Part shown: one piece after another, positions 48,423 through 48,862 of the stretch
Position numbering within the stretch: the stretch's first letter is position 1
How the letters are laid out: every line of letters begins with the position of its first letter
NCBI GenBank assembly: GCA_965204575.1
Contig: OZ241993.1
Coordinates: 1,040,586-1,104,585 of the forward strand
Direction: 5' to 3'
Source: an uncultured candidatus Porisulfidus sp.
GTDB lineage: Bacteria; Pseudomonadota; Gammaproteobacteria; Poriferisulfidales; Poriferisulfidaceae
DNA length: 64,000 nt
Translations under genes and position numbers: made by a program
The notes under the pieces: generated by a model
Told to the model about the DNA's origin: nothing
Database searches by the model: none
The model's input: the letters and a program-made list of their open reading frames with translations, nothing else

Positions 48423-48611
48423 GAGAGAGGCCCGGCTGAAAGCATGGCGCGTATGTTAACAGGAAGGTCGCGAGAGGCGGGGGCGGGCGGGCCGGCGACC
48501 GATGATTTTTCACCGTTGCGGCCGGCGCGTCCGCCGCGCTTGGAGTGGCGCACACCCGCGCAGGGACAGCGGCACGGCATGTTGTATACTTAGGCGAAAC
48601 CACAATGGTAG

Positions 48612-48631
48612 CCCCCCCCCCCCCCCCCCCC
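48612..48631. repeat. Homopolymeric C tract, 20 nt
   Basis: Counted directly: g + 20 c + tag. Intergenic, 190 nt upstream of the dapD start (opposite strand) and about 170 nt upstream of the secB-like promoter. Confidence 0.95.
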
Positions 48632-48797
48632 TAGAAAGAGTCTTCCCCCGCGCCTCCGCGGCGGGCATCGGGAACGTCCGCGGCACCGCCCCGCGCAGGG
48701 CTGGCCGCGCGAGACGGCGGTCGGGCACGTGGCGCGGCCATCGCCAGGCAGGGCGCGTTCTTTCATGCCGGCCTCAAGCGCCTGCCCAGACCGGGGT

Positions 48798-48826
48798 TTG
48801 ATAAAGAAAAAACTATTTGTTAAAAT
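48798..48826 (+). promoter_or_regulatory. Near-consensus sigma70-type promoter upstream of the secB-like gene
   Basis: TTGATA, a 17-nt spacer, then TAAAAT. It sits in an AT-rich patch within otherwise GC-rich DNA. Confidence 0.5.
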
Positions 48827-48862
48827 CCTGCCCATCATCGGGAAGTGGTATTTGCATCTTTA

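What the first reader, a model, noticed from the sequence alone, without database searches (positions are those of the whole stretch)
48590..48840. Second, longer homopolymer (C20) in the dapD / secB-like intergenic region
Seen: 20 consecutive C lie at 48612-48631, about 700 nt from the C14 tract. The surrounding spacer is GC-rich and ends in a near-consensus TTGATA-17-TAAAAT promoter. Two long C tracts this close together, bracketing the secB-like gene at the left edge of the inserted cluster, look non-random. Inference: it may be a second slippage-prone regulatory element acting on dapD or on the secB-collagen operon. It could also be an i-motif or G4-forming element, or a recombination scar at the island boundary.
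Basis: partly seen in the sequence, partly recalled or inferred. Interest (0 to 1): 0.5.

Follow-up and report, generated by a model that had tools for sequence, protein, structure and literature searches.

The report
Slippage-prone poly-C tract heading collagen-adhesin operon
The run of 20 C's is real and belongs to a family of unstable poly-C tracts at the head of an operon for collagen-like surface adhesins in sponge-associated bacteria, so it is most likely a random expression dial of the kind known from pathogens.

Summary
C20 lies at 48612-48631 and C14 at 49325-49338. No other homopolymer in the 64 kb exceeds 7, and about 1e-6 runs of C20 or longer are expected by chance.

The tract lies between dapD (minus strand) and an operon on the plus strand. 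The operon encodes a SecB-like chaperone, two collagen-repeat/YadA-anchor proteins, a 2OG oxygenase and a GT25/PLOD glycosyltransferase.

About 11 of 14 related lineages, all sponge-symbiont-type gammaproteobacterial MAGs, carry a C/G run of 8-28 at the head of the same operon. The flanks are not conserved. No run of 10 or more occurs in 507 kb of ordinary SecB loci.

In one relative, ten contigs encoding the identical SecB-like protein carry C12, C13, C14, C15 or C16, or break at the tract. A 96%-identical relative of the window breaks exactly at the C20 site.

C14 lies inside the coding sequence of the first collagen gene, four codons after its ATG, which is a classic frameshift switch. C20 is non-coding, 166 nt upstream of the -35 of the SecB-like promoter and outside dapD's conserved upstream block.

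Verdict: a contingency-type repeat, a new member of a known kind. Hypermutability is well supported. Its effect on operon expression is inferred.

The parts
48612..48631 (+). C20 homopolymer (the finding). It is a non-coding simple-sequence repeat at the head of the operon, with C on the sense strand of the operon.
   Evidence: Contigs of a close relative break exactly here.
48563..48590 (+). Weak promoter-like site P1 (GGGACA-16-TATACT, 9/12). Its -10 ends 21 nt before the tract. If P1 is used, the tract is at about +12 to +35 of a long leader.
   Evidence: The sequence is conserved in L096.
48632..48797 (+). G+C-rich (75%) non-coding spacer between the tract and the promoter. It has no codon-position periodicity and only 1 substitution in 166 nt against L095.
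   Evidence: No unusual RNA fold and no Rfam match.
48798..48826 (+). Strong promoter-like site P2 (TTGATA-17-TAAAAT, TG before the -10), the likely promoter of the SecB-like operon. Both hexamers are kept in L095.
48863..49285 (+). SecB-like chaperone gene, first gene of the operon.
   Evidence: Pfam SecB E=1e-34; 100% match to P0001.
49325..49338 (+). C14 homopolymer inside the 5' coding sequence of ColA (codons 4-8, Ser-Pro4). It is in frame (ON) at n=14.
   Evidence: Relatives have C13+G (L095) and C16 (L093/L094).
49315..50727 (+). ColA: collagen-repeat protein with a YadA-type membrane anchor and a conserved N-terminal extension ([13 protein letters not shown]...[18 protein letters not shown]).
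50765..52189 (+). ColB: paralogous collagen/YadA-anchor protein with no tract.
52200..54267 (+). 2OG-Fe(II) oxygenase (52200-52832) and GT25 + PLOD-type glycosyltransferase (52816-54267), which travel with the operon.
47595..48422 (-). dapD, the divergent neighbour. Its conserved upstream block (about 48423-48517/48547) stops short of the tract.

Best explanation
C20 is a hypermutable simple-sequence repeat, a contingency-locus element. It belongs to the SecB-like/collagen-YadA operon, not to dapD. Polymerase slippage during replication adds or removes C's at high frequency, so a clonal population holds cells with different tract lengths. I infer that the tract length sets the level of operon expression in a graded way. 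It could do this by changing the distance and helical phase between upstream DNA and promoter P2, or, if P1 is used, by changing a poly-C segment near the 5' end of a long leader. It would work together with C14, which sits four codons into ColA and switches that one adhesin on or off by frameshift while ColB stays in frame. The outcome would be stochastic, heritable and reversible variation of a collagen-like surface coat. Shown here: the tract exists, is far beyond chance and is non-coding. The same kind of tract recurs at the head of homologous operons, and orthologous tracts differ in length between samples. Inferred: that length changes of this particular tract alter expression, and by which route.
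For: (1) Chance is excluded. (2) The tract recurs without flank conservation. Runs upstream of the SecB-like gene: L001 C14, L004 C23, L099 C28, L100 C20, L002/L111 G10, L007 C8. Runs at the 5' end of, or upstream of, the collagen/YadA gene: L005 G12, L006 C14, L008 C20, L112 C11. blastn finds only the tract itself in common between clades. (3) Control: 80 ordinary SecB loci (507 kb, mean GC 66%) have no C/G run of 10 or more. (4) Length polymorphism: ten contigs from different samples encode the identical SecB-like protein and share an identical 118-nt downstream flank. They carry C12, C13, C14, C15 or C16+C9, and five of them end at the tract. L004 and L099 have C23 and C28 with homologous downstream flanks. 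The C14 site has 13, 14 or 16 C in three close relatives. (5) The assembly of a 96%-identical relative breaks exactly at the C20 site. (6) The in-gene tracts behave as frameshift switches: ON in the window, L095 and L005; the ATG is out of frame in L006 as assembled; in L008 the ATG is in frame only at n=21. (7) The genes involved are surface adhesins with a YadA anchor. This is the class classically controlled this way: in Moraxella catarrhalis, uspA1 has a G tract upstream of the ORF giving graded expression and mid/hag has a G tract in the 5' ORF giving on/off switching (PMC7302503).
Against: There are no read-level data for this genome, and the length of the C20 tract itself could not be compared between strains because contigs break there. 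The tract is 166 nt upstream of the -35 of the best promoter and is too long to be a -35/-10 spacer, so no simple promoter-spacing mechanism applies. Its distance to the SecB-like start varies from 28 to 231 nt between lineages, so no fixed architecture is shared. Length differences between short-read assemblies may partly reflect homopolymer sequencing error. Three lineages have the operon without any tract: L003, L097/L098 and L009/L010.
Confidence: 0.55

Rival explanations
1. The tract is hypermutable but functionally idle in this genome. It would be a stranded remnant of an operon-head tract, separated from the SecB-like gene by the 166-nt spacer and by promoter P2, which drives the operon regardless of tract length.
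For: In other lineages the tract lies 28-118 nt from the SecB-like start, but here it is 231 nt away with a near-consensus promoter in between. The SecB-like-to-epimerase block is inverted relative to L093 and L112, so this intergenic region has been rebuilt.
Against: A pure 20-mer with no interruption would be expected to decay or shrink without selection. The tract is kept at the same place in a relative 4% diverged, and the adjacent spacer is unusually conserved, with 1 change in 166 nt.
Confidence: 0.2
2. The tract is a strand-specific element acting at the transcription or RNA level, and DNA length switching is not the main point. As poly(C) in the leader RNA it could load Rho, make RNA polymerase slip or pause, or change leader stability. 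As G20 on the template strand it could form a G-quadruplex that impedes transcription.
For: The run is C on the sense strand of the operon in about 10 of 12 cases. Promoter-like sites usually lie upstream of the tract: L001 has TGGAAT-18-TATAAT 82 nt before it, L008 and L005 likewise, and the window has P1. From established knowledge, poly(C) is the strongest activator of Rho ATPase, and runs of 9 or more cause transcriptional slippage.
Against: The sequence downstream of the tract is not C-rich and G-poor (C about equal to G in most lineages). Two lineages have G on the sense strand. The strand bias is weak statistically and the lineages are not independent. The leader shows no unusual fold. 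The observed length polymorphism is not explained by this reading alone.
Confidence: 0.12
3. The tract is a recombination scar or boundary of a mobile island carrying the collagen cluster.
For: The cluster sits between dapD and glnD, which are neighbours in many gammaproteobacteria. The block is inverted relative to relatives. L103 joins a different upstream flank at the tract.
Against: There is no matching tract or repeat at the other end of the cluster, and no flanking direct or inverted repeats. The inversion breakpoint is near 48838, not at the tract. In other genomes tracts lie inside the cluster, within or before collagen genes.
Confidence: 0.05
4. The tract regulates dapD, as G20 upstream on the minus strand.
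For: It lies 190 nt upstream of the dapD start, in the shared intergenic region.
Against: dapD's upstream conservation with L112 ends 95-125 nt from the ATG. Tracts in other genomes accompany the operon next to unrelated neighbours. dapD is a housekeeping lysine-pathway gene, not a class known to phase-vary.
Confidence: 0.03
5. The tract is an assembly or sequencing artefact.
For: Long homopolymers are error-prone, so the exact count is uncertain.
Against: An independent short-read data set has at least 8 G at the same junction, and both of its contigs end there. Homologous tracts occur in many independent assemblies.
Confidence: 0.02

Closest known systems
Moraxella catarrhalis uspA1 (G tract upstream of the ORF) and mid/hag (G tract in the 5' ORF)
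   Same: Both are homopolymeric G/C tracts controlling YadA-family trimeric autotransporter adhesins. One tract lies upstream of the ORF and gives graded, transcript-level variation; the other lies just inside the ORF and gives on/off switching (PMC7302503). This matches the C20 plus C14 pair here.
   Different: Here the tracts are much longer (14-28 against 6-12). The upstream tract heads a multi-gene operon that starts with a SecB-like chaperone, and it is about 200 nt from the likely transcription start. The organism is an uncultured, probably sponge-associated symbiont. No expression data exist.
Bordetella pertussis fim2/fim3 promoter C-stretches and other Bordetella homopolymeric tracts
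   Same: Long poly-C tracts in a high-GC proteobacterium, upstream of surface-structure genes, varying by slippage (PMC1891110, listed; the fim mechanism is from my own knowledge).
   Different: The fim C-stretch lies within the promoter, between the activator site and the -10. Here the tract is 166 nt upstream of the -35.
Neisseria meningitidis nadA distal TAAA repeat; Helicobacter pylori sabA poly-T rheostat
   Same: Repeats outside the core promoter that tune an adhesin gene by changing the spacing or geometry of distal elements (PMC2791445 and PMC4081817, listed).
   Different: The repeat types differ. Regulators such as NadR/IHF are known there and none is identified here. The distance to the promoter is larger here.
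Haemophilus influenzae 5'-UTR simple-sequence-repeat phase variation
   Same: An intergenic repeat acting through the transcribed leader (PMC12721329, listed). This applies if P1 is used.
   Different: There is no evidence here of a structured or RNase III-targeted leader.

Membership tests
Simple-sequence-repeat contingency (phase-variable) locus | Perfect repeat long enough for slipped-strand mispairing (G/C run of about 8 or more) | tested here: met
   C20, uninterrupted.
Simple-sequence-repeat contingency (phase-variable) locus | Repeat length differs between closely related strains or within populations while the flanks stay the same | tested here: inconclusive
   Met for the orthologous operon-head tract in another species (C12-C16 with identical flanks) and for the C14 site (13, 14 or 16). 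For C20 itself the only close relative's contigs break at the tract, so its length is unknown.
Simple-sequence-repeat contingency (phase-variable) locus | Repeat placed in a promoter, leader or 5' coding region so that a length change alters expression | tested here: inconclusive
   C14: met, in frame four codons after the ATG. C20: intergenic and upstream of the operon, but 166 nt from the -35 of P2 and 21 nt after the -10 of the weak P1. The effect is not measurable here.
Simple-sequence-repeat contingency (phase-variable) locus | Controlled genes encode surface or host-interaction functions | tested here: met
   Collagen-repeat proteins with a YadA anchor, plus modifying enzymes.
Simple-sequence-repeat contingency (phase-variable) locus | Reversible high-frequency switching of a phenotype | not testable with these tools
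   Needs cultures, single-cell data or read-level data.
Promoter-spacer homopolymer (fim, porA or opc type) | Tract lies between the -35 and -10 hexamers, or between the activator site and the -10 | tested here: not met
   The tract is 20 nt long, exceeding the 16-18 nt spacer, and lies outside both promoter-like sites.
Rho utilisation (rut) site | Roughly 70-80 nt of transcribed C-rich, G-poor, unstructured RNA | tested here: not met
   Only the tract itself is C-rich. The 231 nt downstream are 32% C and 32% G. Transcription of the tract is unproven.
G-quadruplex / i-motif element | Four or more runs of at least 3 G (or C) able to fold, with folding demonstrated | not testable with these tools
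   G20/C20 satisfies the sequence requirement trivially. There is no biophysical test, and C13-C14 relatives fall below the three-tetrad minimum.
Mobile-element end / attachment-site scar | Matching repeat at the other boundary, or flanking direct or inverted repeats | tested here: not met
Known RNA family (Rfam) | Covariance-model match | tested here: not met
   No match at E<=1 in 47000-51500.

The most novel reading that the evidence does not exclude
The sense-strand poly-C is a conserved operon-head module in its own right. It would be a transcribed poly(C) leader or template-strand G-run that gates transcription (Rho loading, polymerase slippage or pausing, or a quadruplex), with its length acting as a tunable dial. 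It would have been maintained for a long time across sponge-symbiont gammaproteobacteria specifically to control display of an animal-like, enzymatically modified collagen coat used in host recognition or evasion of phagocytosis.
Probability: 0.12. Interest if true: 0.7.

Novelty: new member of a known kind. Interest (0 to 1): 0.45.

Why it matters
Phase variation through homopolymeric tracts is a hallmark of pathogens and commensals that face adaptive or innate host surveillance. Here the same device is found in unusually long form (C14-C28). It recurs at the head of an operon that appears to build collagen-like trimeric-autotransporter proteins together with animal-type collagen-modifying enzymes, in uncultured bacteria whose nearest relatives are sponge symbionts. 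This suggests that these symbionts hedge their bets on whether and how strongly to display a host-mimicking surface coat. That idea is testable with read-level tract-length profiles across host individuals and with metatranscriptomes. I found no paper describing it. There is also a practical point: these tracts break short-read assemblies exactly at the operon, so the operon's regulation is easy to miss.

Tried and rejected
- Upstream ORF through the tract. An ATG at 48606 gives Met-Val-Ala-Pro6-stop at n=20, and at n=19 or 22 a frame runs to a TAA overlapping the SecB-like ATG. I rejected this reading. The 166-nt spacer has no codon-position GC periodicity (0.75/0.76/0.75, against 0.70/0.40/0.89 in real genes). 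An open frame of that length is also expected by chance in 75% GC DNA.
- Structured leader RNA or riboswitch. No Rfam hit, and fold z-scores of +0.8, +0.85 and -0.56.
- Homology of the tract flanks to other lineages, or to the 5' region of ColA. None beyond the tract itself.
- Flanking repeats of a mobile element. None.
- Rho-site composition downstream of the tract. Not found.
- Exact-protein look-ups for the window's own dapD and SecB-like proteins found no contigs. Close relatives were reached through cluster members instead.
- The metagenome scan with the SecB-like alignment returned only ordinary SecB loci. These were used as the negative control.
- L097 against L098 (same SecB-like protein, collagen gene split in one). 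No homopolymer is involved, so the comparison was uninformative.
- Homology of promoter P2 with the SecB-like upstream region of L093. Not demonstrable beyond about 25 nt before the ATG.

Full report
**1. Observation**

The window has 20 consecutive C at 48612-48631 and 14 C at 49325-49338. C runs of length 1 to 6 fall off steeply (9605, 3283, 671, 116, 24, 9). There is then nothing until 14 and 20, and the longest other homopolymers are one T7 and one G7. The number of C runs of 20 or more expected from composition is 3e-7 to 1e-6. The promoter-like site TTGATA-17-TAAAAT at 48798-48826 is real: 10 of 12 positions match, with a TG before the -10. The exact count in a consensus assembly may be off by a base or two.

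**2. Surroundings**

Pfam assignments give the following gene order.

| Genes | Strand |
|---|---|
| dapE, ArsC-family gene, dapD (47595-48422) | minus |
| 440-nt intergenic region containing C20 | |
| SecB-like gene (48863-49285); two paralogous collagen-repeat proteins with a YadA-type membrane anchor, here called ColA and ColB; 2OG-Fe(II) oxygenase; GT25 + PLOD-type glycosyltransferase; two small ORFs; an epimerase; a second 2OG oxygenase | plus |
| glnD, map | minus |

- The cluster therefore sits between dapD and glnD.
- Only 29 nt separate the SecB-like stop from the ColA ATG, so the two genes are probably co-transcribed. This is an inference.

**3. Relatives**

- The SecB-like protein has a distinct clade of relatives at 50-82% identity.
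- In the species-representative genome collection these are all MAGs labelled Gammaproteobacteria, Arenicellales, Candidatus Poriferihabitaceae or Candidatus Porisulfidus.
- The last two names occur in genome notes on sponge-associated metagenomes. The window organism is therefore probably a sponge-associated gammaproteobacterium. This is an inference; the source is not given.
- tblastn shows the same operon in these loci: SecB-like gene, collagen/YadA gene(s), 2OG oxygenase and GT25/PLOD transferase.

**4. Tracts recur at the head of the operon**

| Position | Locus and tract |
|---|---|
| 28-118 nt upstream of the SecB-like start | L001 C14, L004 C23, L099 C28, L100 C20, L002/L111 G10, L007 C8 |
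| At the 5' end of, or just before, the collagen/YadA gene | L005 G12, L006 C14, L008 C20, L112 C11, L093/L094 C16 |
| No tract | L003, L097/L098, L009/L010 |

- L004 carries an additional C28 at 16586-16613, about 950 nt past its glycosyltransferase gene and upstream of another collagen-repeat region. Its gene context was not resolved.
- About 11 of 14 lineages carry at least one run of 8 or more at the operon head.
- blastn with 7-nt words finds no flank similarity between clades, only the tract itself.
- As a control, 80 ordinary SecB loci from metagenomes (507 kb, mean GC 66%) contain no C/G run of 10 or more and a single run of 9.
- The association with this operon is therefore strong, and the conserved feature is the tract, not its context.

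**5. Length instability**

- Ten contigs from different samples and pipelines encode the identical SecB-like protein P0005 and share an identical 118-nt stretch between the tract and the ATG.
- Their tracts are C12, C13, C14, C15 and a composite C16...C9. Five of the contigs end in or at the tract.
- L004 and L099 have homologous downstream flanks but C23 and C28.
- At the C14 site, three close relatives have 14 (window), 13 followed by G (L095) and 16 (L093/L094).
- For C20 itself, the only close relative is about 96% identical and from short reads. Its contig L096 begins with G8 plus the dapD-side flank, and its contig L095 begins at the first base after the tract.
- This shows that the tract exists independently of the window's assembly and that it defeats assembly. 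It does not give a length.
- Some of the differences between assemblies could be homopolymer sequencing error. The pattern is nevertheless what a hypermutable tract produces.

**6. C14 is a coding-sequence switch**

- Collagen/YadA proteins in all lineages share an N-terminal extension...R-x-R-x-x-D-x-W-W/L-S/P-x-x-K...RRQVAV..LGV.SMLS... It begins 35-50 codons upstream of the QVAV motif.
- In ColA the only start codons upstream of this segment are a GTG at 49297 and the ATG at 49315. Both precede the tract and lie in one frame; the ATG has a GGAAG 9 nt before it.
- C14 then encodes Ser-Pro4 at codons 4-8, in frame at n=14.
- L095 is in frame, and so is the G12 of L005.
- L006 as assembled (n=14) has its ATG out of frame; it would be in frame at n=13.
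- In L008 the ATG is in frame only at n=21, although a GTG is in frame at n=20.
- ColB has no tract.
- This is the classic translational on/off arrangement. Two caveats apply. Consensus lengths may be wrong by one, and very long runs allow transcriptional slippage, so "off" may be leaky (established knowledge).

**7. C20 itself**

- It is non-coding. The spacer after it has no codon-position GC periodicity (0.75/0.76/0.75 in every frame, against 0.70/0.40/0.89 for the SecB-like gene).
- The mini-ORF from the ATG at 48606 stops at the TAG right after the tract.
- The tract lies 166 nt upstream of the -35 of P2 and 21 nt after the -10 of a weak site P1 (GGGACA-16-TATACT).
- In other lineages promoter-like sites tend to lie upstream of the tract (L001, L005, L008). 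That suggests the tract is often transcribed.
- The leader has no unusual fold and no Rfam match. The sequence beyond the tract is not C-rich and G-poor.
- No repeats flank the tract.
- dapD's upstream similarity to L112, where dapD has a different neighbour, ends 95-125 nt from the ATG, before the tract at 190 nt.
- The tract therefore goes with the operon, not with dapD.

**8. Mechanism**

- Best supported: slipped-strand mispairing makes the tract length heritably variable.
- Inferred: the length tunes expression of the whole operon in a graded manner. The route is either the spacing and phasing of upstream DNA relative to P2, or the poly-C segment of a P1 leader.
- C14 independently switches ColA.
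- I put about 0.85 on hypermutability and about 0.5 on a real regulatory effect of this particular tract, which gives 0.55 overall.

Rivals:

| Rival | Confidence |
|---|---|
| An idle remnant displaced from the gene by rearrangement | 0.2 |
| A strand-specific RNA or template-strand element (C is on the sense strand in about 10 of 12 cases) | 0.12 |
| An island scar | 0.05 |
| dapD control | 0.03 |
| An artefact | 0.02 |

**9. Comparison with known systems**

- The closest parallel is Moraxella catarrhalis. There uspA1 has a G tract upstream of the ORF with graded, transcript-level effects, and mid/hag has a G tract in the 5' ORF with on/off switching. Both genes encode YadA-family adhesins (PMC7302503).
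- Other relevant systems are the Bordetella homopolymeric tracts (PMC1891110), the distal repeats at nadA (PMC2791445) and sabA (PMC4081817), and the 5'-UTR repeats of Haemophilus (PMC12721329).
- The promoter-spacer type is excluded by position.
- Differences here: very long tracts, an operon led by a SecB-like chaperone, collagen-modifying enzymes in the operon, and a symbiont rather than a pathogen.
- I found no paper on this in sponge symbionts.

**10. Verdict**

This is a real, non-random, slippage-prone tract and a new member of a known kind. The mechanism is ordinary, the setting is interesting, and the regulatory effect of C20 itself is unproven. Interest: 0.45.

Noticed in passing
window 48863-56055 (and L001-L010, L097-L100, L112): A conserved operon that looks like machinery for an animal-type collagen on a bacterial surface. 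It has a SecB-like chaperone, one or two collagen-repeat proteins with a YadA anchor, a 2OG-Fe(II) oxygenase (possibly a prolyl or lysyl hydroxylase), a GT25 + PLOD-type glycosyltransferase and an epimerase. It is present in at least 14 lineages of sponge-symbiont-type gammaproteobacteria. No paper was found.
   Followed up: partly
window 48838-56665: This block, from the SecB-like gene to beyond the epimerase, is inverted relative to relatives L093 and L112. There the order is glnD - SecB-like ... epimerase - dapD. L095/L096 share the window's arrangement.
   Followed up: partly
window 48632-48797: The non-coding 75% GC spacer has only 1 substitution in 166 nt against L095, while neighbouring sequence differs by 4-7%. 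It has no unusual RNA fold and no Rfam match. The reason for its conservation is unexplained.
   Followed up: partly
window 49371-49520 and 50830-50979: The 5' regions of ColA and ColB are 96.7% identical over 150 nt although the genes are otherwise about 76-79% identical. This suggests gene conversion of the N-terminal extension and signal region. Only ColA carries the C tract.
   Followed up: no
L002 9943-10030 and L111 5919-6010: The SecB-like reading frame has no ATG/GTG/TTG start before the conserved N-terminus unless G10 becomes G11. Two separate assemblies both show G10. An ATT after AAAGGAG is in frame. The gene may be in an OFF state or use an unusual start.
   Followed up: partly
L101 361-398; L103 about 180-227: One assembly has a composite tract (C16-acgcccccttccg-C9), and another joins a different upstream flank directly to the tract. 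This is either misassembly at the homopolymer or rearrangement at the tract.
   Followed up: no
L093 7265-9816: A relative carries a TnpB/IS605-type gene, a truncated second SecB-like copy and a divergent 2OG oxygenase between glnD and the operon, so the locus is rearrangement-prone.
   Followed up: no
window 1001-3000, 17001-21000, 23001-24000, 28001-30000, 39001-44000: Several stretches of 47-56% GC in a window that averages 62% GC may be foreign DNA. They were not examined.
   Followed up: no
window 61784-62380: An ORF with DUF6088 and an AbiEi-antitoxin-like domain lies next to map/glnD. The region matching it in relative L093 is flanked by VapBC and restriction-modification genes.
   Followed up: no
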